Source: Naegleria gruberi (Eukaryota). From it: a stretch of 64,000 nucleotides of DNA. Position numbers and translations under genes: made by a program. Shown piece by piece: positions 13,705 to 64,000 of this stretch. The notes under the pieces were generated by a model. The model searched no databases. It saw only the letters and a list, made by a program, of their open reading frames with translations, and was not told the origin of the DNA. Each line of letters starts with the position of its first letter. The stretch's first letter is position 1. Location: the NCBI GenBank assembly GCA_000004985.1, contig GG738859.1. One strand, given 5' to 3'.

Positions 13705-15600
13705 ATGCCAAGTGATGAACGTGAAGGAAAATACTCATCAACCAACGAGGTAGATAATAACCACTCTGATGAAGTAGAAAATAAATCAAAAATTCCAAAG
13801 TATGACAATGATGAACAAAACCCTTCATCAAATGTAAAAGAATTGGCGGAAAGAGGTAAAAACAAAGTTCTTGAAATGATGATGAAAATGGGCTATAAGG
13901 AAGGAGAAGGTTTAGGTAAATTCGGTCAAGGAAATGCCTCCGTCGTCAATCCACAGGTAAATACAGGTAGAGGAGGTCTCGGAACAATTGATGAAACCTC
14001 TAACTTGTCGAATGTTGTCGAAAGTAGTGATGGAACTTATAAATTACCTTCAAATTTTCAAGTTCAAAGACATGAAGCTGATCCAAAGATTTATAGTCAT
14101 AAGGAAGAATTTGAATGGATTGCATGCAAGGAGGAAAATAGAAAAATCTACTCTGGACCAAATGATCCAATTTACAAAATTGTCAAACCAGAGAGTGATA
14201 ATTTGGATCCATCCAAAATGGCACCAAACGATGCTAATGAAGGACAAAATCCATTCATTGATCCTGAAATTATGAAATCCATTTTCAAAACAAAAGCAGA
14301 CTTTGATGATTTACCACCGAAAATATTCCTCGATGCAAGATTGAGATCTAATCCATATGAAAAAATTGGTAAATCAATCTTTCAAAATAGAGCTGCTGTA
14401 AAATTGGCTAATATTGATTTAGTAACAGATTTGACCAGTGAAACATCCTTGCCAAGACTTGTAGAAGAAAATGGCGTTCTCTATTTTGCAGATATTTGTG
14501 CTGGTCCAGGTGGTTTTACAGAATATTTATACTATAGATATAAAACCTCTAAAGCTAAGGGTTGGGGTTTCACGCTTAAGAATGATAAGGATGATTGGAA
14601 GTTGGAAAAATTCAATAATGAATCTCCATGTTCAAACTTTGAGTTAAATTATGGTGTGGATGGCACAGGTGACATTACCAAAAATGAAAATATGCTTTGT
14701 CTTGATGATGCTGTAAATAGAGGAACAAATAATAGAGGATTGGCACTTGTGACTGCTGATGGAGGATTTTGTGTTGATGGTGTTGAGAACTCTCAAGAAT
14801 ACTTGACACAACAATTAGTTCTTTGCCAATTTTTGACTGCTCTTCTTACTTTGAGAAAGGGGGGATGTTTTGTTTGCAAATTATTCGATTTGAATACCTG
14901 GTTTTCTGCCTCTCTGATATATGTCATGTATCAATACTTTGAAAAGGTTACCATTTTCAAACCATTTTCATCGAGACCAGCAAACTCTGAAAGATACATT
15001 GTTTGCAAGGGAATGACAGAAAGAAAGCCTGAAATTATCAAGTTTCTTCTCCAAGCCAATACCAGACTTTCTGAACGGAAACCAATCAAATCACTTGTTG
15101 ATTGTGATGTAATGACTTCTGATAAGGAATTTGCTCAATTTATGACCACCTCTAATAATACCTTCTCAGAAAATCAAGATTATAATTTGAAACGATTGAA
15201 AATGGCAATTGAAGATAGGTATATTGATATTAAGGATCTTCAATACCAACTTCAACAATCATGTCTAAAAGAGTGGAATTTACCTGAATCAAGATCCAGA
15301 TCGTATAATAAGAGATCTTATGATAATTATAGAGGTAATAGGTCATATGACAGAGACAGGAATTATAGTGGTGGACGTGGAGGTTATGGTGGAAATCGTG
15401 ATAACAACAGATATGATAACAGAAATAATGATAGCAGATATGATAGACATGACAGAAGGGATAACAATGATTATTACAACAATAATGGTAGAAGCAATAA
15501 TAGTCGTAACTATGGAAGAGTAAATAATCATGACGACAGATATGAAAGAAGAGATTCCCATCATTCAAATTCATACAGAAATGACAGACATTACAGATAA
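13705..15600 (+). CDS. cap-specific mRNA ribose 2'-O-methyltransferase-like protein (G-patch + FtsJ/RrmJ methyltransferase, CMTR1-like) with R/D/N/Y-rich C-terminal tail, 631 aa
   Basis: Single ORF with ATG at 13705 after an A9 run. The G-patch is MMKMGYKEGEGLGKFGQGNASVVNPQVNTGRGGLG. The SAM-methyltransferase motif I is YFADICAGPGGFTEY and the fold is RrmJ-like. The last ~100 aa are RSYDNYRGNRSYDRDRNYSGGRGGYGGNRDNNRYDNRNN... low complexity. Confidence 0.7.
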   Translation: MPSDEREGKYSSTNEVDNNHSDEVENKSKIPKYDNDEQNPSSNVKELAERGKNKVLEMMMKMGYKEGEGLGKFGQGNASVVNPQVNTGRGGLGTIDETSNLSNVVESSDGTYKLPSNFQVQRHEADPKIYSHKEEFEWIACKEENRKIYSGPNDPIYKIVKPESDNLDPSKMAPNDANEGQNPFIDPEIMKSIFKTKADFDDLPPKIFLDARLRSNPYEKIGKSIFQNRAAVKLANIDLVTDLTSETSLPRLVEENGVLYFADICAGPGGFTEYLYYRYKTSKAKGWGFTLKNDKDDWKLEKFNNESPCSNFELNYGVDGTGDITKNENMLCLDDAVNRGTNNRGLALVTADGGFCVDGVENSQEYLTQQLVLCQFLTALLTLRKGGCFVCKLFDLNTWFSASLIYVMYQYFEKVTIFKPFSSRPANSERYIVCKGMTERKPEIIKFLLQANTRLSERKPIKSLVDCDVMTSDKEFAQFMTTSNNTFSENQDYNLKRLKMAIEDRYIDIKDLQYQLQQSCLKEWNLPESRSRSYNKRSYDNYRGNRSYDRDRNYSGGRGGYGGNRDNNRYDNRNNDSRYDRHDRRDNNDYYNNNGRSNNSRNYGRVNNHDDRYERRDSHHSNSYRNDRHYR

Positions 15601-52910: not shown

Positions 52911-53924
52911 TTATACTAATACTCTGGAATGCTCTTTCGTTTCAGTATCATATTTGATCATGGCAATTTCCTTACTTTTTGGATAGTTGCCAGAGGTGAA
53001 ACTCAAACAGTTACCCACAATTGAGGAGCAGTACACACCTTTCGAGGAATCCACTGAGCTATGGAAGTGTCCATGGAATGTGGCAGCTGGTTCATGCTTT
53101 TCAATAAATCTTCTAAGTGCAATTGATCCACAATGGAAATCACTGATATTATCACAGCATGTATCTTTTGGAGGCATGTGACAGATCCATATTTGATTCT
53201 TACAATTTTCTTTAGAAAATGAATACCTCTCCTCAATTCTTTCCAATTCTCTTTCAATAGAAAAGGCCTTCACCAATTCACTATCATTTACATCAAATTT
53301 GAAATGATAAAATCCTTCCTTTCCTCTAAAATGTGAATCCTCACTTGGATTCTCCTCCAACAATTGTCGAGTATTTGCATATTCATTATTGAGAATAATA
53401 TCATGGAGTTGCTGAGCATCAAAAGTAGTATATCCTTTCGTTCTTATCACATAAGAATCAACATTCTGAGCCAAAGTATCCTTCACATCCTTTGTATCAA
53501 ATCTCTCAAAATCCTTCTTATGTCCCTTCATGAAAACAATCGATGAGTAGGCCATTATTTCCAAATCATCATTCACTCTCATCATTTCATTATACAACAC
53601 TACAATATTTGTCTCTTTTGTTTTTTCCTTCATAAACTCAACATCGGAATATAAATCAGCATTTCCAAAGCAAACATACACCTTTCCATGCTTGAATTGC
53701 TTCAATATTGGAAGTAGTTTGTCCTCAAAATAGACTCGATGCTTATCAATTCCCTTGTTACTATCGAGATGGGAATATTCATCTAAATTGGATTCCTTCT
53801 TATTCTTCAAATATAAATCACCTCCGATAATAACAGCATCCATCTGATGATCATTTGCATAATTGATCAATTTTTGATATTGGGTAAGATTGCCGTGTAG
53901 ATCTGAGGAGAAGAGTAATTTCAT
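52911..53924 (-). CDS. calcineurin-like metallophosphoesterase, 337 aa
   Basis: ATG at 53922-53924 after an A8 run. The N-terminal motifs are DLHGN and GGDLY, followed by GNAD (VCFGNADLY), with later His-containing motifs (CHMPP, HGHFH). Confidence 0.7.
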   Translation of the reverse strand: MKLLFSSDLHGNLTQYQKLINYANDHQMDAVIIGGDLYLKNKKESNLDEYSHLDSNKGIDKHRVYFEDKLLPILKQFKHGKVYVCFGNADLYSDVEFMKEKTKETNIVVLYNEMMRVNDDLEIMAYSSIVFMKGHKKDFERFDTKDVKDTLAQNVDSYVIRTKGYTTFDAQQLHDIILNNEYANTRQLLEENPSEDSHFRGKEGFYHFKFDVNDSELVKAFSIERELERIEERYSFSKENCKNQIWICHMPPKDTCCDNISDFHCGSIALRRFIEKHEPAATFHGHFHSSVDSSKGVYCSSIVGNCLSFTSGNYPKSKEIAMIKYDTETKEHSRVLV

Positions 53925-54021
53925 TTTTTTTGAATTGATTTTTAAAATATTCTTTACAATGATTGTAATGTTCCATGTTCACAAGTTTATTAGTGACCGG
54001 TATTTAAATAGTTTGTAAATT

Positions 54022-57000
54022 TTAAATTGTAGGAGGGTTTACATTTTCGAAAGATTCAAATGCTACAATTTCATCCATAACAAGCCAATAAAATGTAATA
54101 CCAAAGAAATCTCTCATTTTCCTCTTCTTATTGTCATTTCTTACAGCAATATAGAAAACTGTGGCAACTGCTTGTCTTGGAAATACTTTACTCTCATAGT
54201 CGTCCAATACTTCAACTGCCTTGTCATGATAATATTTGGTGAAATGTTTAACAATTTCACTAATTTCCAATTTTAGTTTGTAATGGTTCTTTCCACATCT
54301 GACCTCTAATTCCTTTGTATTGAAAAATCCTCCTAATAATTCAACTTCTGATGAGACAAAGTATTGTTGCATGAGCTTTCTCAAATCTGATTTGTACTCT
54401 TCATAAATTTCTAATGCTGCATTGTAGGCGTGCATTATATTTTCATCAAAATAATCCCAGTCGTCATCTATGAGCATTGTTTTGAGATTAGGAAGTTTGA
54501 TAAAGACAGCATCTAAAATTTCAAGATGAGGATCCAGTTTTATCTCTTGAATAGAATCTAGAATGCCAAGCTTTTTTCCGTGAACTGTTTTTTCAAAAAA
54601 GACAGCCTTATCATAAATACTTCCAATAACATCTTCAGAGTGATATGTTTTCTTACCAAAAACTCTTGGCATATAGTGAGGTCTACTGTTGGAGAAAAGT
54701 TCAGTAGGAAGTGGTTTTCTGACACCAGTTTTGGCATAGTCAACTTGATAACTGTGGTGTTTGGCCAATTTCAAACAAGGTTCACTTCTTAGCCCATCCC
54801 CCTCCTTATCGTAATGTTCCAAATGCAAGAATGCAACAACACCAAGGTTGTCATTAATAATGTACTCTGTTAAGAATTCTCTAATAACTCGATAGTCACA
54901 TCCGTCGTGCTTTTCTTCAGGTGGAAGTCCCTCATAATTCATTGGGGGATATTCCTCAAAATTAACTAGGAGTGGATCCCAAAATACTTGGAAAAAGTCG
55001 CCGTCATAGTCGCCTCCACTCATTTTGTTAGCTGCAGGTCTATTGCCTTTTTGGCTGAATACAATTACATCTCTAAGGTGTGATAATTTGCTAATCTTTT
55101 CTGGATCTGTAACAGCTTTGAACTTTCTAATGTCACCAGGGTGAAGGCATGGTGATCTTGTAATTGCTACAGTTCCACTCAAAGTGCCACCATTCACAAA
55201 ACAATTGTCATCATAAAGATCAGAGTCAGAGTTTTCCAATTCAGAAAGTTGGATAAATACTTCATCCTCTTCCAACACTCCATAAAAGTCCACAACTCCC
55301 ATCAATAAAAGAGCCTTGTCAAGAATAATTCTACCATTCTTGAGATCATTCAATCTGTTTCTGATCAAACTATCCTTGATATTGCAAAATACTGGTTCTA
55401 TTTGGTAAAAGAATTTAATGTCCTCTCCCGATTGCACAACTTTAGAAAAGTCGTATTGAGAATCCAAATAGTTGAGAGAGGCCACTTTCTTCATATTCTT
55501 TCCAACGATATTATCTTGTGATTTTCTCAACACTCTCCTCATATACTTCTTATCATTAAATAACTTTTTGATTTCTTCAAGATCTCTATCGAGTAGTTGT
55601 AAAAATACCGAATCTGATACCTTATTGGAACTCAATAAAGCAATCAATTGTCTATTCAAACTAGCAAATCTATTTCTTTTCGAGTAAGTAATCAGTTCAA
55701 ACTCGCTACTGGAGGAATCTATGAACTTTTCCTGACTCTTAGATAGGAGAAGATCCAAATCTGAATATAAATGAATATCAGGATCTACAACAACAACTCC
55801 CTTCAACCCTCCCATACGAAATTGGAATGCTGATGGTATGTATTCTTTGCCAGCAAATGAGATTTGGAATTTCTTGGTTAATTCTACAGCAAATTCTAGT
55901 GATATTCTTCCTACACCATCTGTAAACACATAATTGTTTCTGGTAATGTCTGGAATAATTTCATACTCTTTTGAGATGCCTTCATACGTGTGTGAAAAGC
56001 ATTGTCCAATTCTTGCTGCATACCTTGCTTTAACTTTGATATGAGAAAAATTACCAAGAGAATTGATAATATTTCTTGGGGTGAAACTTCCATTCGAATA
56101 AACGAACCAAGAACTGGAACATTGTTAGAAATGTTTGAAATAATATAAGACGTACCTGTGGGCTCTAAGTTGACTGGTAGAATAAGCAAGCATTTCATAT
56201 TTTCTGTTAAAAACTAGAAGGCCCTTCTTTAGCACAATCTCAATTCTCTCATGCAAGTTTGTAAATTTTTCAGCACTAAGTTTATGAAGATCTTCATCGC
56301 AGAATGTGATTCTCAAAAAGTGATCTTCATTCTTTTCCTTATATTTTCTCAAAACTCTATTACCACCCTCAACTGATTTGTCAAAAAATCTCCAACCTGT
56401 TGGTGTAATCATTACTTTACGAATATTGAAAAAGTTTGTATCAAAATCAATGAATGCCGTGTCATTATGTTTCAATTTTTGATCAGCTAACCGTTGATTG
56501 AAATGTTCTAGGAATTCAGATGGATAGATGTTTTTCTCATTCAATACTTCTCTCATGGCACGGTCAACCATTTCATAGTCATGATCTTTGTTAATATATC
56601 TTGTAATAGTGTCCACTATTGCTTCCAATCTTTCTCTATTGTGTAGAATTCCTGGTATCTTAGTATCTAAGCAAAACAGCAAATATACTGTATTGAAGGA
56701 AAAATTATGAAACAATGGAAAGTCCAAGCTTTCATCATATTGGAATGTATCGATTTGCTTCCTTTTGATTTTCTTATCTCTCATTACCAAAGGATATGGA
56801 TAATTATGACCCTTCAGTAGGGAACTCACATCAGATGAAACAGTGAGCAGTAGAGATCTACCCCATCTGAAATTGTTCAACCACATGGATGATATGCTAT
56901 CTTGTTGTGAATAGTCAGGAGCTGCCATTCTTGTACGAAATGCTTCATCAGGCCTCTTACGGTAGATGAATGGCACATTTCTAAGTTCAATGGCTAATTC

Positions 57001-58068
57001 TGTGACACCAACAATAACACGTCTCACATTCTCTCGCTTAATGTCCATCCAATAGTCATGATTAGAGTTGAATGTTGCTTGTAATTTAATATCACCAGTT
57101 GCAGACCAGTATACTAATGATACCTTTCTCTCCAATAATCCATGTCCTACTTGTTCCTTATTTACACATAAAAATGTTTCATGCTTATTGTCATCAAAAT
57201 TACCAATCTCCATATTTATCCAGTTTAACTCCACTGACCCATACTCCACTAAATCATTGGGTTTTTCAGATTTGGTTGTTGATTTTGATGATGTTACACT
57301 TTCTTCAATTATTACAGGTGGTCCAATAATCTGCACAGGTTGTTTCTTCTTTTCTTTGGCCTTATCCTTCTTTTGAGTTGGTTCCTTCTTTTCCTTTGGT
57401 TTTAGACTGGGAAAGTTATTTTCATTATCAAGGGCCACAGGTTTTGGTGGCTGATTGACAATTACAGGTTGATGAATATTGGTAACTGGTGGATTGTGAA
57501 TTCTATCATTATCATTCCTCCTATAATTGTTATTTCCTCCTTTATAATTATTATTGTCTCCTCTTTGCTCTTTATATTCTCGATTATTATTATTTCCTGA
57601 ATATTCCCTATGCTTACTCGATTTATCATTGTTATCATTGAAATTATTATTATTATTGTAATTATTATTTCCTCTATATTCTCTATTGTTGTTGCCATTA
57701 CGCGAGTATCTATCATTATTATCATTGTAATTCTTCTGATAATTATTATTGTAATTGTAATTATTATTTTGATAATAGCGATTAGGAGGAGGCTTCTTGC
57801 TATTATCATAACTGCTACCATTACTCGGATTGATTAAATCACCAGTAGTATTATTAATTATATAATTTCTCGCTTTGTTTTGTTGATAAAAAGCCTTTTT
57901 CTGAGATGATTCGGAAACATGTTCCTCTGAATCATTAATTATTAATTCCTCTTCATTATGATGAGAACTACTACTACTACTACTACTTGCTCCACCATTC
58001 CTAGTACTACTTGCTCCTCTATAAATCTGATAATGTTGCTGATTTGTCTTTTGATTGGGATTAAACAT
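54022..58068 (-). CDS. eukaryotic cellular RNA-dependent RNA polymerase (RDR family, RNAi pathway); 2 exons, ~1334 aa
   Basis: On the minus strand the exons are 56156-58068 and 54022-56113, with a 42-nt intron (GTACGT donor, ccag acceptor) and consistent phase. The catalytic signature SGGDYDGDFFQVFWD is the DxDGD motif of the RDR double-psi barrel. An extended RdRP core follows. The first ~200 aa are an N/Y/R-rich low-complexity region. Confidence 0.9.
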
Positions 58069-58665
58069 TTTTTTTATCTATTGAGCTTCAATTATCTTGT
58101 TGTTTCTTTGTCTTTGGATTATTGGACTAACGATATCATTTGTTTGGTTGATGTACAGTGTGGTAATTTGGATTTGTAAATCTTATAACAATGAGACAAC
58201 AAGCTGAAATAAATAATCACTCGATTTACTCCTTACCAAAGATTATTGAGTATAACAGTATAAGGGAGAGGTGGGAATGATGCAGTGTAAGTTATTTCTT
58301 CTTTGGAGTTTGGTTCTTTTTCATTCAACTTGATATTCGAATAATTGTTTGAGTCCTCAATACCATAACACATGGAAGAGAATTGCTTATTTATGTCACC
58401 AGTAACACAATGATGACAGCAAGGTGGCTTTGAACTTAATGCAATTGCTTGTTGATGTGTTTTGAAGCTATGGGAGTACTTGTAATCTCAAAATGGTACC
58501 TAACCCTAAATGGAAAAGATTGCAAAAAAGTGTTTTCTTATTTCTAAAAACAACTAATAAAGGACAACTGTTGATTATCTCCAACAATAATTGCGAGGAA
58601 GTTACGTTTGTTGCAACAATCAAGAAACATCAATCTCAAAAACAAACTAGAAAAAACAACAGAGA
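58069..58665. promoter_or_regulatory. 597-bp divergent intergenic region between RdRP and 7TM-RGS genes
   Basis: It has no convincing ORF; the track ORF at 58493-58756 starts with TTG and has poor composition. Confidence 0.3.
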
Positions 58666-60390
58666 ATGTCACTCACTGTTTATTCGAAACCATCATCATT
58701 ATTCGAAATTAATGAAATACTTAATACAGTTTCCTCCCTTTATGCTTCATCTTTAAATTCTACAACTAACACCTCAATGATACCATGTGATTTGCGGATT
58801 TTTGAAATGTCATACCTCTCAACAAAACCCAACATGACAGCACAAGATTATAACAATATTTGCCCCGACACAATATTCGTTCCAATAGTTGCATGGATTG
58901 AAATTGCAATCTTCATTCCCTTATTTCTTCTCTCATTTATTGGAATTATTTGGAAGAGAAAAAGTGGACACATACAGGCGAGGAATCTCTCTTGTCTAAT
59001 TCCCATACTCATTGCTTCCTTTTTCTCAACCATCTTCCCATCATTGAGGTGGGCCTTAGGGAGAGATCTCTTTCCGTGTGGTGTTTTAATTTTTATATTA
59101 TTTCACACGTCGTGGGCAATGATTCTACCGCCAATACTTAATATGTTTTCCTTTATTGTGAGACATGCCTTGTACAGGTTATTGACTGGGAATTTTAAGG
59201 ATTTGAGTGATCAGTTGGGAATGGATAGGAATTCATTAAAATTAGATGTTAAAAAACTTTCGAATACGATGGAGGAAATGCAACACGCAGCCGAGTCGGT
59301 CATGCAAAATTCGACATCGATAGGATCTGTCAGCACTTTGCAATCAAATTCCGATCTAACAGCCACAAAAAGCAAATCAAAAAGTGCTGATTTAGTGAGT
59401 ACTATTGGCTCTTTGGATTTTACTCCAAATGAAGTGAGATTATTCAAATTTTACAAGTTTTTATTAAGTGCCAAATTTCGAGTACTGACCTATTTGATTT
59501 GTTTTGTGATTCACATATCGTTGTGGTTGATTTTGGGCTTAATTCAATTGACCAATCCTGAGTCTGCCTCTCCATATTACAATACTGGAATTAACAATTT
59601 TTTTGGAGCTTGTACGATGCATTCAGGAACAGTGGCAGTTTTCTGTGGATTATTTGCATCTTACTTGGCTGCTCTGGTTGTCCTGCTCTTGATTTCCTTC
59701 TTCTTGGAGAAGGATACATGGGGAATCAAAATAGAAACTTCAGTAATGAGCATTCTCCTCCTCATTGCTGTCATTAATTATCTTGTCTGTCCATACATTA
59801 CCATTATAAGAACTTATACTGATTATTTCTTTCCGTATGGTCAATCGATGGTTATGTATTCCATCATTCAACTCTTTGTTTTTGTAACCATTCCACTGTG
59901 CAGATCCATAAAAGGAGATGGGATATTTCCAGAGGAAATTGCTTCCACAATGTTCGAAAGAATTCTCCTCAATAAGGAAACTTTCAAAATAGCCCTCGAT
60001 TTCAGCAGGAGATCCTACTGTTCAGAACCAGTCCTATGTTTCGACAATATTGAAAATTATAAGAAAGCTCGAAGAAAATCAAACAAGCTCAAAATTGCAC
60101 TTCACATTCTCAATACCCATCTGAAGAAAGGTGCTCCACTCGAGTTGAATATTGACAAGATTGAGGAACGATTCAAATCACTCCAAGAGAACATTTCCAA
60201 TCAGGATGAGAAGAAAATTGATGAAGAAGTTGGATTGTTGAGAATTCACTGTTTACAAGACATGTCTGAAATGATGTATCGATTGATTTTGAGTGATAAG
60301 GTAGTTAAAGAGGTGGCAATGATGAATTCTGGTAAAATTCCAGTGGATTCACTAAATTCACCAGTTTCGTCTGAACTTTCTAATGTTTAA
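58666..60390 (+). CDS. seven-transmembrane protein with C-terminal RGS (regulator of G-protein signalling) domain (AtRGS1-type architecture), 574 aa
   Basis: ATG at 58666. There are seven hydrophobic helices between residues ~70 and 400. The C-terminal RGS box is FKIALDFSRRSYCSEPVLCFDNIENYKK...ILNTHLKKGAPLELNIDKIEERF...MMYRLILSDKV (compare RGS4 [25 protein letters not shown]...EVNLD...DSYRRFLKS). Confidence 0.7.
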   Translation: MSLTVYSKPSSLFEINEILNTVSSLYASSLNSTTNTSMIPCDLRIFEMSYLSTKPNMTAQDYNNICPDTIFVPIVAWIEIAIFIPLFLLSFIGIIWKRKSGHIQARNLSCLIPILIASFFSTIFPSLRWALGRDLFPCGVLIFILFHTSWAMILPPILNMFSFIVRHALYRLLTGNFKDLSDQLGMDRNSLKLDVKKLSNTMEEMQHAAESVMQNSTSIGSVSTLQSNSDLTATKSKSKSADLVSTIGSLDFTPNEVRLFKFYKFLLSAKFRVLTYLICFVIHISLWLILGLIQLTNPESASPYYNTGINNFFGACTMHSGTVAVFCGLFASYLAALVVLLLISFFLEKDTWGIKIETSVMSILLLIAVINYLVCPYITIIRTYTDYFFPYGQSMVMYSIIQLFVFVTIPLCRSIKGDGIFPEEIASTMFERILLNKETFKIALDFSRRSYCSEPVLCFDNIENYKKARRKSNKLKIALHILNTHLKKGAPLELNIDKIEERFKSLQENISNQDEKKIDEEVGLLRIHCLQDMSEMMYRLILSDKVVKEVAMMNSGKIPVDSLNSPVSSELSNV

Positions 60391-62935: not shown

Positions 62936-63955
62936 TTAAAATTGATTCCTATTGGGTGTTTCCCAAAGTGGAATTTCTGTAAATTCGTTTGTGGGATCAA
63001 TCAGGATTGGAGTTTCGTTTCTAATAGATGGAGTCCAGTGAGAAATTTCAGATTTTATAGAATCTACTCTGAATTCCTCCTTTCGAACAATATCTACAGT
63101 ATTCACAGCTGCTTGAGATTTGGCATCTCTTTTAATGGTTTCAACAGTATCATTTGAGCTAGCTCTAATTTCTATCATGATATTATCCAAAGGACCAAAT
63201 GAAAACGTTACAAAAACACAAAATGATAACAAGGTTATTTTGTGGAAAAGAATGCATACGGGATAAATCTGAATAAATATTCCAAATGCAGCAGATCCTA
63301 CTATCAATGAAATCAAATTGAAAATTGCCATATAAAGTTGGCCAAATGTTAATAAAAGCAAATTTCTACATGATTTCTTACGTTGCTCTGTGATTGGAAA
63401 CTTTTGATTGAGTAATAACTTTCTGATAAGCAACACAACAATAGCCATATTTAGTAATGAGTAATAAATTGTTACTAAACTTGTAATTGAAATGTAAAGT
63501 CCAAACATGGCTTCACCAACTTGTTTGAAAATAAGAAAATCCGTTTCAGACAATAGCTTCCTGTCAGCGTCATAATATCTGAATATATTTGAAGAGATTA
63601 CAAAACCAACAATTATTACGAAAATCAAGTTGACTGTTACAATCAGCGAAATGCTCAATATTGTGATAAATCGTGAAATATAGTGTCTCTTCTTATTCAT
63701 TCTCATCCATTCATGTGATTTGTTAAAGAATAATTGATTTAAAATCTTTGTAATAAAACATTGGCAATTGACACAAGCAGCAATTGACAAGTAAAAGATA
63801 GATTGTTCCAATGATGAACTGACTACTATATAAATTACTTCCAAATCAAGTAGTAAACAAATACAAGTACCCAATCCAACAATTTGAAAAATTTCTTCCA
63901 ATATAAATAATGATAGAATTACTGAATAAAGTATTTTCTTATTGGAAACCATTTT
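62936..63955 (-). CDS. multi-pass (about 7 TM) membrane protein of unknown family, ~339 aa; start uncertain (may extend beyond window)
   Basis: The candidate ATG at 63953-63955 has an A-rich context (MVSNKKILYSVILSLF...). At least six long hydrophobic helices are separated by short loops, and the hydrophilic C-terminal tail is ISHWTPSIRNETPILIDPTNEF.... Confidence 0.45.
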   Translation of the reverse strand, partial: KMVSNKKILYSVILSLFILEEIFQIVGLGTCICLLLDLEVIYIVVSSSLEQSIFYLSIAACVNCQCFITKILNQLFFNKSHEWMRMNKKRHYISRFITILSISLIVTVNLIFVIIVGFVISSNIFRYYDADRKLLSETDFLIFKQVGEAMFGLYISITSLVTIYYSLLNMAIVVLLIRKLLLNQKFPITEQRKKSCRNLLLLTFGQLYMAIFNLISLIVGSAAFGIFIQIYPVCILFHKITLLSFCVFVTFSFGPLDNIMIEIRASSNDTVETIKRDAKSQAAVNTVDIVRKEEFRVDSIKSEISHWTPSIRNETPILIDPTNEFTEIPLWETPNRNQF

Positions 63956-64000
63956 CTTATAATTTAAAATAAAAATTGAAAGCATAAACAATGTTATGAT

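What the first reader, a model, noticed from the sequence alone, without database searches (positions are those of the whole stretch)
54022..58068. Cellular RNA-dependent RNA polymerase with a ~200-aa N/Y/R-rich prion-like N-terminus
The DYDGDFF signature and long collinear core identify an RDR-family RdRP, so this organism has an amplifying RNAi or small-RNA pathway. The N-terminus (NNNYNYNNNYQKNYNDNNDRYSRNGNNNREYRGNNNY...) is a tyrosine/asparagine/arginine low-complexity region. It is reminiscent of FUS-like phase-separating domains rather than of the helicase N-termini of dictyostelid Rrp proteins. Pervasive convergent transcript overlap in this same window would supply natural dsRNA substrates for such an enzyme.
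Basis: partly seen in the sequence, partly recalled or inferred. Interest (0 to 1): 0.6.

Follow-up and report, generated by a model that had tools for sequence, protein, structure and literature searches.

The report
Naegleria RNA-dependent RNA polymerase gene
This is an intact gene for a cellular RNA-dependent RNA polymerase of the amoeba Naegleria gruberi, already listed in the literature as NaegRDR1a; its asparagine/tyrosine-rich front end is real, but it is a species-specific disordered extension rather than a conserved functional module.

Summary
Window 58068..54022 (- strand) encodes a 1334-aa protein from two exons joined by one 42-nt GT..AG intron. Pfam RdRP (PF05183) matches it end to end (E 1.1e-154), and the DYDGD catalytic motif is present. 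Neighbouring proteins identify the organism as Naegleria gruberi. The gene is already catalogued as NaegRDR1a, one of ten N. gruberi RDRs (Bollmann et al. 2016). That published sequence is truncated: it starts at residue 657 and wrongly splices out 18 conserved residues, so it lacks the N-terminus.

The N-terminal 270 residues are predicted disordered. Residues 96-200 are 39% Asn, 12% Tyr and 10% Arg. This stretch must be translated, because M1 is the only in-frame ATG upstream of conserved sequence.

The closest relatives in N. lovaniensis and N. fowleri also carry a roughly 190-aa disordered extension. Theirs is Ser/Thr-rich with almost no Tyr. Only a short motif (LD.E..FP.L) is shared. The N/Y/R tract is therefore a lineage-specific expansion of decayed AAT-type repeats. 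With 26% charged residues it is not a canonical prion domain.

A role in RNA binding or condensates is possible but untested. RNAi in Naegleria is inferred from gene content only. Interest is low to moderate.

The parts
56156..58068 (-). Exon 1 of the RDR gene (codons 1-637 plus 2 nt)
   Evidence: Open frame from the ATG at 58068. Ends at CACAG|GTACGT.
56114..56155 (-). 42-nt intron (GTACGT...TTCTAAC...CAG) with an in-frame TAA
   Evidence: Its removal restores collinearity with homologues (SQLRAHS|SWFVYS against SQLRSHSAWFVCA) and gives a single contiguous Pfam hit.
54022..56113 (-). Exon 2, including the stop codon at 54022-54024
57259..58068 (-). N-terminal extension, residues 1-270, predicted disordered
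   Evidence: AlphaFold2 pLDDT is below 50 for residues 1-276, with a mean of about 26. There is no Pfam hit. The N. lovaniensis and N. fowleri relatives carry 192- and 188-aa extensions at the same place.
57469..57783 (-). Asn/Tyr/Arg-rich low-complexity core, residues 96-200
   Evidence: N 39%, Y 12%, R 10%, charged 26%. There are 14 aromatic residues, 1-13 residues apart. The DNA shows decayed tandem repeats with periods of 3, 9, 12, 18 and 21.
57403..57432 (-). Short conserved motif LDNENNFPSL (residues 213-222) inside the disordered region
   Evidence: The pattern [LF]D.[ED].[DN]FP[AS]L also occurs at residue 85 of N. lovaniensis P0011 and residue 77 of N. fowleri P0012.
56410..57258 (-). 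Folded N-terminal region upstream of the Pfam domain, residues 271-553 (beta-rich, then helical)
   Evidence: Conserved in five Naegleria homologues. pLDDT reaches 70-86 for residues 280-440. The only significant PDB fold match for the whole exon-1 model (residues 1-637) is Arabidopsis RDR2, 7eu0_M, E 1.7e-10.
54607..56409 (-). Pfam RdRP (PF05183) domain, residues 554-1140, spanning the intron
   Evidence: E 1.1e-154, profile positions 1-581 of 582.
54997..55011 (-). Catalytic motif DYDGD, residues 1006-1010
   Evidence: Direct translation. The Asp and Gly positions are invariant in alignment A1.
55339..55392 (-). 54-nt coding segment (VFCNIKDSLIRNRLNDLK) that the published NaegRDR1a sequence omits as if it were an intron
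   Evidence: It starts with GT and ends with AG. It is missing from the published sequence. The homologous residues are present in N. lovaniensis and N. fowleri.

Best explanation
This is the Naegleria gruberi gene for the cellular RNA-dependent RNA polymerase previously listed as NaegRDR1a. It is an intact two-exon gene encoding 1334 residues. By homology with plant RDR1/2/6, fungal SAD-1 and Rdp1, and QDE-1, the enzyme would copy single-stranded RNA into double-stranded RNA at a DYDGD metal-binding active site, feeding Dicer-like enzymes (inferred). In front of the folded RDR body sits a 270-residue disordered extension. Its Asn/Tyr/Arg-rich core (residues 96-200) arose in the N. gruberi lineage by expansion and decay of AAT-type codon repeats. 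It is not needed for the conserved enzyme architecture. At most it adds non-specific RNA or self-association through Tyr and Arg residues (speculative). The short conserved LD.E..FP.L motif downstream of it is the more likely conserved interaction site.
For: Organism: four neighbouring proteins match N. gruberi entries exactly. Family: a full-length Pfam RdRP hit. Solved plant RDRs match at E about 1e-83 and QDE-1 at 1.5e-24. The catalytic Asp residues are invariant. Identity to the published gene: 100% over 363 aligned columns with NaegRDR1a. The extension is translated: M1 is the only in-frame ATG upstream of the conserved block NDLVEYGSVELNW, and a TAG lies four codons upstream of it. The two closest relatives also begin MFK... 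and carry extensions in the same exon as the conserved domain. Disorder: pLDDT below 50 for residues 1-276. Lineage-specific origin: N. lovaniensis and N. fowleri extensions are 31-33% Ser+Thr with 0-1% Tyr, against 21.5% Asn and 6.7% Tyr here. The shared motif sits at residue 213 here and at 77-85 there, which implies about 130 extra residues in N. gruberi. The DNA shows degenerate tandem repeats, and Asn codons are AAT:AAC 37:4 in the tract against 44:16 in the core. A hint that Tyr and Arg are not pure drift: Tyr (13) far exceeds Ile (2), Thr (1) and His (3), all of which are also one step from AAT. The 11 Arg residues use 5 different codons. The only other Asn-rich tract among 43 ORFs in the window is an R/N/D/Y/G tail on another RNA enzyme, a G-patch + FtsJ methyltransferase.
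Against: No transcript, small-RNA or protein data were available, so expression, the intron and the start codon are inferred from sequence and homology. Orthology with the N. lovaniensis and N. fowleri genes rests on an NJ tree (98% bootstrap). Synteny is not conserved and intron positions differ. The structure model used only six sequences (mean pLDDT 46). Low confidence in the N-terminus is consistent with disorder but does not prove it. Any functional role for the tract is untested.
Confidence: 0.85

Rival explanations
1. The Asn/Tyr/Arg tract is a functional phase-separating or prion-like domain that concentrates the polymerase in RNA granules. This would resemble siRNA bodies or germ granules, with the scaffold domain fused to the polymerase itself.
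For: The tract is predicted disordered. It has 14 aromatic residues spaced 1-13 apart, 10% Arg and almost no aliphatic residues. Tyr exceeds the other one-step neighbours of the Asn codon, and Arg codons are diverse. A similar R/N/D/Y/G tail occurs on another RNA enzyme in the window. A different heterolobosean RDR, Willaertia P0001, carries a huge Asn/Tyr/Phe tract.
Against: The composition is not conserved in the closest relatives, which have 0-1% Tyr. The tract is 26% charged, unlike canonical prion or FUS low-complexity domains. Arg enrichment is marginal (P 0.03). The DNA repeat structure and AAT bias point to slippage. The Willaertia protein groups with a different paralogue, NaegRDR1c (99% bootstrap), and the visible starts (about the first 400 residues) of the N. 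gruberi RDRs listed with complete N-termini show no such tract. No predictor or experiment was run.
Confidence: 0.2
2. The N-terminal extension is not part of the mature protein, either because translation starts further downstream or because an unrecognised intron removes the tract. The functional protein would then be a plain RDR of about 1060 residues, like N. lovaniensis P0013.
For: The published NaegRDR1a sequence lacks the whole N-terminus. Paralogues P0013, P0014 and P0015 have no extension. Repeat-rich AAT sequence is open in several frames, so an open frame alone is weak evidence within the tract itself.
Against: No in-frame ATG lies between M1 and M296, and M296 sits inside the conserved domain, downstream of the conserved block NDLVEYGSVELNW. 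The LD.E..FP.L motif and the MF start are shared with two other species. In those species the extension and the domain are one exon. The published sequence is demonstrably truncated, since it begins without a Met in mid-domain.
Confidence: 0.07

Closest known systems
NaegRDR1a of Naegleria gruberi (Bollmann et al. 2016, Front Plant Sci 7:284, PMC4791657, supplementary sheets 6 and 7)
   Same: It is the same gene: 100% identity over 363 aligned RdRP-domain columns, including GGDYDGDFFQVFW.
   Different: The published sequence starts at LGNFSHIK, which is residue 657 here. It omits 18 conserved residues (window 55339..55392). It therefore lacks the N-terminal half of the enzyme and the low-complexity extension.
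N. lovaniensis C9374_008112 (P0011) and N. fowleri FDP41_007115 (P0012) RDRs
   Same: These are the closest relatives, at 57% and 52% identity over the core and 98% NJ bootstrap. They share the N-terminal domain, a disordered extension of about 190 aa starting MFK, and the LD.E..FP.L motif.
   Different: Their catalytic motif is DLDGD rather than DYDGD. Their extensions are Ser/Thr/His-rich with almost no Tyr. Their intron is at residue ~302 rather than 637. Their gene neighbours differ.
Plant RDR1/RDR2/RDR6 and fungal SAD-1 and Rdp1 (RDR-alpha type; solved structures 7eu0, 7w82, 7w84)
   Same: These are the best matches outside Naegleria, at 29-36% identity. RDR2 aligns over about 800 residues at E 1e-83, and the exon-1 model matches RDR2 by fold. 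Identity to alpha markers is 33-38%, against 29-31% for beta markers and 27-28% for gamma markers.
   Different: No hits to the RRM or accessory Pfam families that were precomputed for many of those hits. Deep placement in an NJ tree is unresolved, with bootstrap of 10% or less. The Naegleria group forms its own long-branched clade (100%).
Neurospora QDE-1 (2j7n)
   Same: It has the same DYDGD form of the catalytic motif and a homologous catalytic core.
   Different: It is much more distant: E 1.5e-24, only about 325 residues aligned, and 28% identity in the domain alignment.
Dictyostelium RrpA-C type helicase-RDR fusions
   Same: They share the RdRP domain (P0004).
   Different: There is no helicase domain here. 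None of the ten N. gruberi RDRs is listed with a DEAD domain.
FUS-family and yeast prion-like low-complexity domains (from general knowledge)
   Same: The tract is disordered, rich in Asn and Tyr, and poor in aliphatic residues.
   Different: It is 26% charged, with Arg and Asp interspersed. It is not conserved among orthologues. No aggregation or demixing evidence exists.

Membership tests
Eukaryotic cellular RdRP (RDR family, Pfam PF05183) | Full-length match to the RdRP profile above the curated cut-off | tested here: met
   516.7 bits against a cut-off of 23.8, E 1.1e-154, profile positions 1-581 of 582, residues 554-1140.
Eukaryotic cellular RdRP (RDR family, Pfam PF05183) | Catalytic DxDGD motif with all three aspartates | tested here: met
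   DYDGD at residues 1006-1010. D1006, D1008, G1009 and D1010 are invariant in six Naegleria sequences.
Eukaryotic cellular RdRP (RDR family, Pfam PF05183) | Homology to RDRs with solved structures (RDR2, QDE-1) | tested here: met
   By sequence: 7eu0 at E 1.2e-82 over core-query residues 255-1051, and 2j7n at 1.5e-24. The exon-1 model matches 7eu0_M at E 1.7e-10. The catalytic half was not modelled.
Eukaryotic cellular RdRP (RDR family, Pfam PF05183) | RNA-templated RNA synthesis | not testable with these tools
   Needs a biochemical assay.
RDR-alpha clade (Zong et al. 2009 scheme) | Greater similarity to alpha markers than to beta or gamma markers | tested here: met
   33-38% identity to alpha markers, 29-31% to beta and 27-28% to gamma, over the 370-column published alignment. 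RDR2 scores 1e-83 against 1e-24 for QDE-1.
RDR-alpha clade (Zong et al. 2009 scheme) | Supported monophyly with alpha members in a tree | tested here: inconclusive
   In the NJ tree with 500 bootstraps, all nodes deeper than the Naegleria-only clade have 10% support or less. No ML or Bayesian tool was available.
Helicase-RDR fusions (Dictyostelium and oomycete type) | DEAD/helicase-C domain N-terminal to the RdRP domain | tested here: not met
   Pfam finds only RdRP, even at E up to 5. The published table lists no DEAD domain in N. gruberi RDRs.
Prion-like / FUS-like low-complexity domain | Disordered, enriched in N/Q/S/G/Y, depleted in aliphatic residues | tested here: met
   N+Q+S+G+Y is 65%, ILVMFWC number 4 of 105, and pLDDT is about 26.
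Prion-like / FUS-like low-complexity domain | Few charged residues | tested here: not met
   26% D+E+K+R in residues 96-200. The criterion itself comes from general knowledge of yeast prion domains and the FUS low-complexity domain.
Prion-like / FUS-like low-complexity domain | Compositional conservation in orthologues | tested here: not met
   N. lovaniensis and N. fowleri extensions are Ser/Thr-rich, with Tyr at 1% and 0% and Asn at 7-8%.
Prion-like / FUS-like low-complexity domain | Positive PLAAC/PAPA score; demixing or amyloid formation | not tested
   No such predictor is installed, and experiments are required.

The most novel reading that the evidence does not exclude
N. gruberi RDR1a carries its own condensate-forming and RNA-binding Tyr/Arg-studded Asn-rich domain. 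In this amoeba the polymerase would then self-assemble into small-RNA amplification bodies without a separate scaffold protein. Heterolobosean RNA enzymes, including the CMTR1-like methyltransferase in the same window, would share this 'N/Y/R' flavour of RNA-granule domain.
Probability: 0.15. Interest if true: 0.5.

Novelty: already known. Interest (0 to 1): 0.2.

Why it matters
The practical value is a corrected gene model. The only published sequence of this gene is a C-terminal fragment with a false intron. Studies of Naegleria RNAi that rely on it, including efforts to build knock-down tools for the pathogen N. fowleri, would miss half the enzyme and its N-terminal extension. The ten-member RDR family of N. 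gruberi is unusually large for a protist and has not been studied functionally. The low-complexity tract itself is probably an evolutionary by-product. If it did drive granule formation, it would be a compact example of a polymerase carrying its own scaffold.

Tried and rejected
1. A search with the full-length protein was swamped by low-complexity words and returned only 4 hits. It was repeated with the core alone.
2. Exact look-ups of the spliced protein and of both ORF products found nothing. No N. gruberi entry for this gene appeared in the homology search, so its status in the current NCBI annotation could not be checked. The literature supplement supplied the published sequence instead.
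3. The metagenome contig carrying the neighbouring gene (L001) stops 31 nt before reaching the RDR.
4. The Biopython bootstrap timed out and was replaced by a numpy NJ implementation. The deep alpha/beta/gamma placement remained unresolved.
5. Synteny as support for orthology failed, because the neighbouring genes differ between N. gruberi and N. lovaniensis/N. fowleri.
6. I considered and rejected the idea that Willaertia's Asn-rich RDR shows conservation of the tract. It groups with a different paralogue.
7. I considered and rejected a pseudogene reading. Both exons are open, all catalytic residues are present, and the only in-frame stop lies inside a canonical intron.
8. No other RNAi component (Dicer, Argonaute) was found among the 20 large ORFs scanned against Pfam out of the 21 other ORFs of at least 250 aa (62936..63991 was not scanned).
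9. PLAAC/PAPA scoring was not attempted, because the parameter tables are not available offline and I would not reconstruct them from memory.
Full report
**What is there**

On the minus strand, two long ORFs in the same frame (58068..56125 and 55929..54022) are interrupted by 42 nt at 56155..56114. This segment has a GTACGT 5' site, a TTCTAAC branch-point-like element 12 nt before a CAG 3' site, and an in-frame TAA. Splicing it out gives a 4005-nt coding sequence of 1334 codons. The ATG at 58068 follows an A-rich leader, with an in-frame TAG four codons upstream.

Unspliced, the two ORF products match the two ends of Pfam RdRP separately. The spliced protein gives one contiguous hit: residues 554-1140, profile 1-581 of 582, 516.7 bits, E 1.1e-154. 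This confirms the exon join. The motif GGDYDGDFF is present, with DYDGD at residues 1006-1010 (window 54997..55011). Its Asp and Gly positions are invariant among six Naegleria homologues.

**Whose gene it is**

Exact look-ups of neighbouring ORF products return Naegleria gruberi proteins (EFC46376, EFC46378, EFC46266, and the cluster of EFC46391) on a 530-kb scaffold. The window has 31-38% GC and tightly packed genes.

The literature already lists this gene. Bollmann et al. 2016 (PMC4791657) catalogue ten RDR homologues in N. gruberi, none with a helicase domain. Their 'NaegRDR1a' contains GGDYDGDFFQVFW and FTDGVGRISLEFAVEL. It is 100% identical to the window protein over 363 aligned domain columns.

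The published sequence is incomplete in two ways. It begins at LGNFSHIK, residue 657 of the model built here, with no initiator Met. It also lacks VFCNIKDSLIRNRLNDLK. That 54-nt stretch (55392..55339) starts with GT and ends with AG, which explains a false intron call. The homologous residues are present in N. lovaniensis and N. fowleri.

**Relatives and classification**

With the low-complexity region removed, the best hits are:
- N. lovaniensis P0011: 57% identity, 1266 aa.
- N. fowleri P0012: 52% identity, 1190 aa.
- More distant Naegleria paralogues P0013, P0014 (close to NaegRDR1b) and P0015.
- Fungal SAD-1, RDR1 and Rdp1 and plant RDR1 and RDR6, at 29-36% identity.

Among solved structures, plant RDRs (7w82, 7w84, and RDR2 in 7eu0) score about 1e-83. 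QDE-1 scores 1.5e-24.

I added my sequences to the published 370-column domain alignment and ran NJ with 500 bootstraps. The results were:
- The window protein groups with P0011 and P0012 at 98%.
- A Naegleria-only clade, adding P0013, NaegRDR1b and P0015, has 100% support.
- Everything deeper is unresolved, at 10% or less.

By plain identity the protein is closest to alpha-type markers (33-38%), then beta (29-31%), then gamma (27-28%). I therefore call it alpha-like by similarity, with clade membership unproven.

The N. lovaniensis and N. fowleri genes are syntenic with each other but not with the N. gruberi locus. Their single intron lies at residue ~302 instead of 637.

**The N-terminus**

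Residues 1-270 precede a conserved block (NDLVEYGSVELNW...) that all close homologues share.

The core of the tract, residues 96-200, has this composition:

| Measure | Value | Enrichment against the protein's own core |
|---|---|---|
| Asn | 39% | P 7e-24 |
| Tyr | 12% | P 1.5e-3 |
| Arg | 10% | P 0.03 |
| N+Q+S+G+Y | 65% | not tested |
| Charged residues | 26% | not tested |
| ILVMFWC | 4 of 105 | depletion, P 7e-14 |

An AlphaFold2 model of the exon-1 product used a six-sequence alignment. It gives pLDDT below 50 for residues 1-276 and confident beta-rich structure from about residue 280. The model's only significant PDB match is RDR2.

The tract must be translated if the gene is expressed as modelled. 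There is no in-frame ATG between M1 and M296, and M296 lies inside the conserved domain.

P0011 and P0012 also start MFK... and carry extensions of 192 and 188 residues in the same exon as the domain. Their composition is different, however: 31-33% Ser+Thr, 7-8% Asn and 0-1% Tyr. One short motif is shared, LDNENNFPSL here against LDLEKDFPAL and FDLDKDFPAL. It sits at residue 213 here but at 85 and 77 there. N. gruberi therefore has about 130 extra residues upstream of it, and this is essentially the N/Y/R tract.

At the DNA level the tract consists of degenerate tandem repeats with periods of 3, 9, 12, 18 and 21. Its Asn codons are 37 AAT to 4 AAC. The simplest reading is a lineage-specific slippage expansion inside a pre-existing disordered linker.

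**Is the tract more than drift?**

Two observations hint at some selection:
- Among residues one mutation away from AAT, Tyr (13) greatly outnumbers Ile (2), Thr (1) and His (3). The 11 Arg residues use five different codons.
- Of 43 ORFs of at least 150 aa in the window, only one other has an Asn-rich tract. It is the C-terminal R/N/D/Y/G tail of a G-patch + FtsJ methyltransferase, another RNA enzyme.

Against a conserved function:
- The composition is not conserved in the closest relatives.
- Arg enrichment is marginal.
- The high charge content departs from canonical prion or FUS-type low-complexity domains (general knowledge).
- The very Asn-rich Willaertia RDR is the counterpart of a different paralogue, NaegRDR1c, at 99% bootstrap.

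I give the functional-condensate reading about 0.15-0.2.

**The pathway claims**

N. gruberi has three Dicer-like genes and ten RDR genes (PMC4791657 supplement). A 2026 review reports Dicer, Argonaute and other homologues in N. fowleri and concludes only that an intact RNAi pathway may be present (PMC13315211). A small-RNA pathway is therefore a reasonable inference from gene content, not a shown fact.

Three convergent gene pairs, all with strong Pfam support, have stop codons 16, 24 and 33 bp apart. Overlapping 3' ends are therefore likely. Sense/antisense duplexes would feed Dicer directly, whereas RDRs act on single-stranded templates. The RDR gene itself has tandem and divergent neighbours, at 97 bp and 597 bp. 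No Dicer or Argonaute is encoded among the large ORFs scanned in the window.

**Verdict**

The RDR identification is correct but already published. The 'prion-like' label is a compositional analogy that fails two of the tested criteria. The useful new points are a corrected full-length gene model and the finding that a disordered N-terminal extension with one short conserved motif is shared by the closest Naegleria relatives, while the N/Y/R tract is specific to N. gruberi.

Noticed in passing
window 13705..15597 (+): A G-patch + FtsJ methyltransferase (CMTR1-like cap 2'-O-methyltransferase architecture) has a C-terminal tail of about 100 aa rich in Arg, Asn, Asp, Tyr and Gly (...RSYDRDRNYSGGRGGYGGNRDNNRYDNRNND...). 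It is the only other Asn-rich low-complexity tract among 43 ORFs of at least 150 aa in the window.
   Followed up: partly
window 55339..55392 (-), and residues 1-656 of the gene: The published NaegRDR1a sequence (PMC4791657 supplement) is a fragment starting at residue 657. It splices out a 54-nt GT..AG segment that encodes 18 residues conserved in other Naegleria species. NaegRDR1c in the same table also starts at the equivalent mid-domain position.
   Followed up: yes
window 56114..56155; L002 6907..6971; L003 6895..6958: Intron positions are not conserved. N. gruberi has one 42-nt intron at residue 637/638. N. lovaniensis and N. fowleri have one 64-65-nt intron at residue ~302 and none at the N. 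gruberi site.
   Followed up: partly
L003 8060..8167 (N. fowleri VFQX01000058.1): The N. fowleri model P0012 lacks about 70 residues, including the conserved YSKR...LNRQ block. The 108 nt spliced out in the model still read as homologous coding sequence ending in a TAG. This suggests an assembly error, a mis-annotation or decay of the N. fowleri copy.
   Followed up: no
window 6755/6789, 28973/28998, 36383/36400: Three convergent gene pairs have stop codons only 33, 24 and 16 bp apart: DNA polymerase A / SET-domain protein, saccharopine dehydrogenase / TPR-Cns1 protein, and RNase PH / coatomer alpha. Their 3' UTRs almost certainly overlap.
   Followed up: partly
P0001 (Willaertia magna ABK040_016899), residues ~231-720: This 2206-aa RDR has a tract of about 490 residues that is 51% Asn with 7% Tyr and 6% Phe. 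In the NJ tree it pairs with NaegRDR1c (99%), not with the gene studied here.
   Followed up: partly
L002 and L003 compared with window 52911..60390: The RDR's neighbours in N. lovaniensis and N. fowleri are a CRAL_TRIO protein upstream and an ankyrin/hemerythrin protein downstream. In N. gruberi they are a metallophosphoesterase downstream and an RGS-domain membrane protein upstream. Local synteny is not conserved.
   Followed up: no
L001 (ENA ERZ929261, PRJEB11402 metagenome contig, 3836 bp): A metagenome contig encodes a protein identical to the 337-aa metallophosphoesterase encoded next to the RDR, followed by the same RMC1_C neighbour. The source organism, or a very close strain, is therefore present in that environmental sample.
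   Followed up: no
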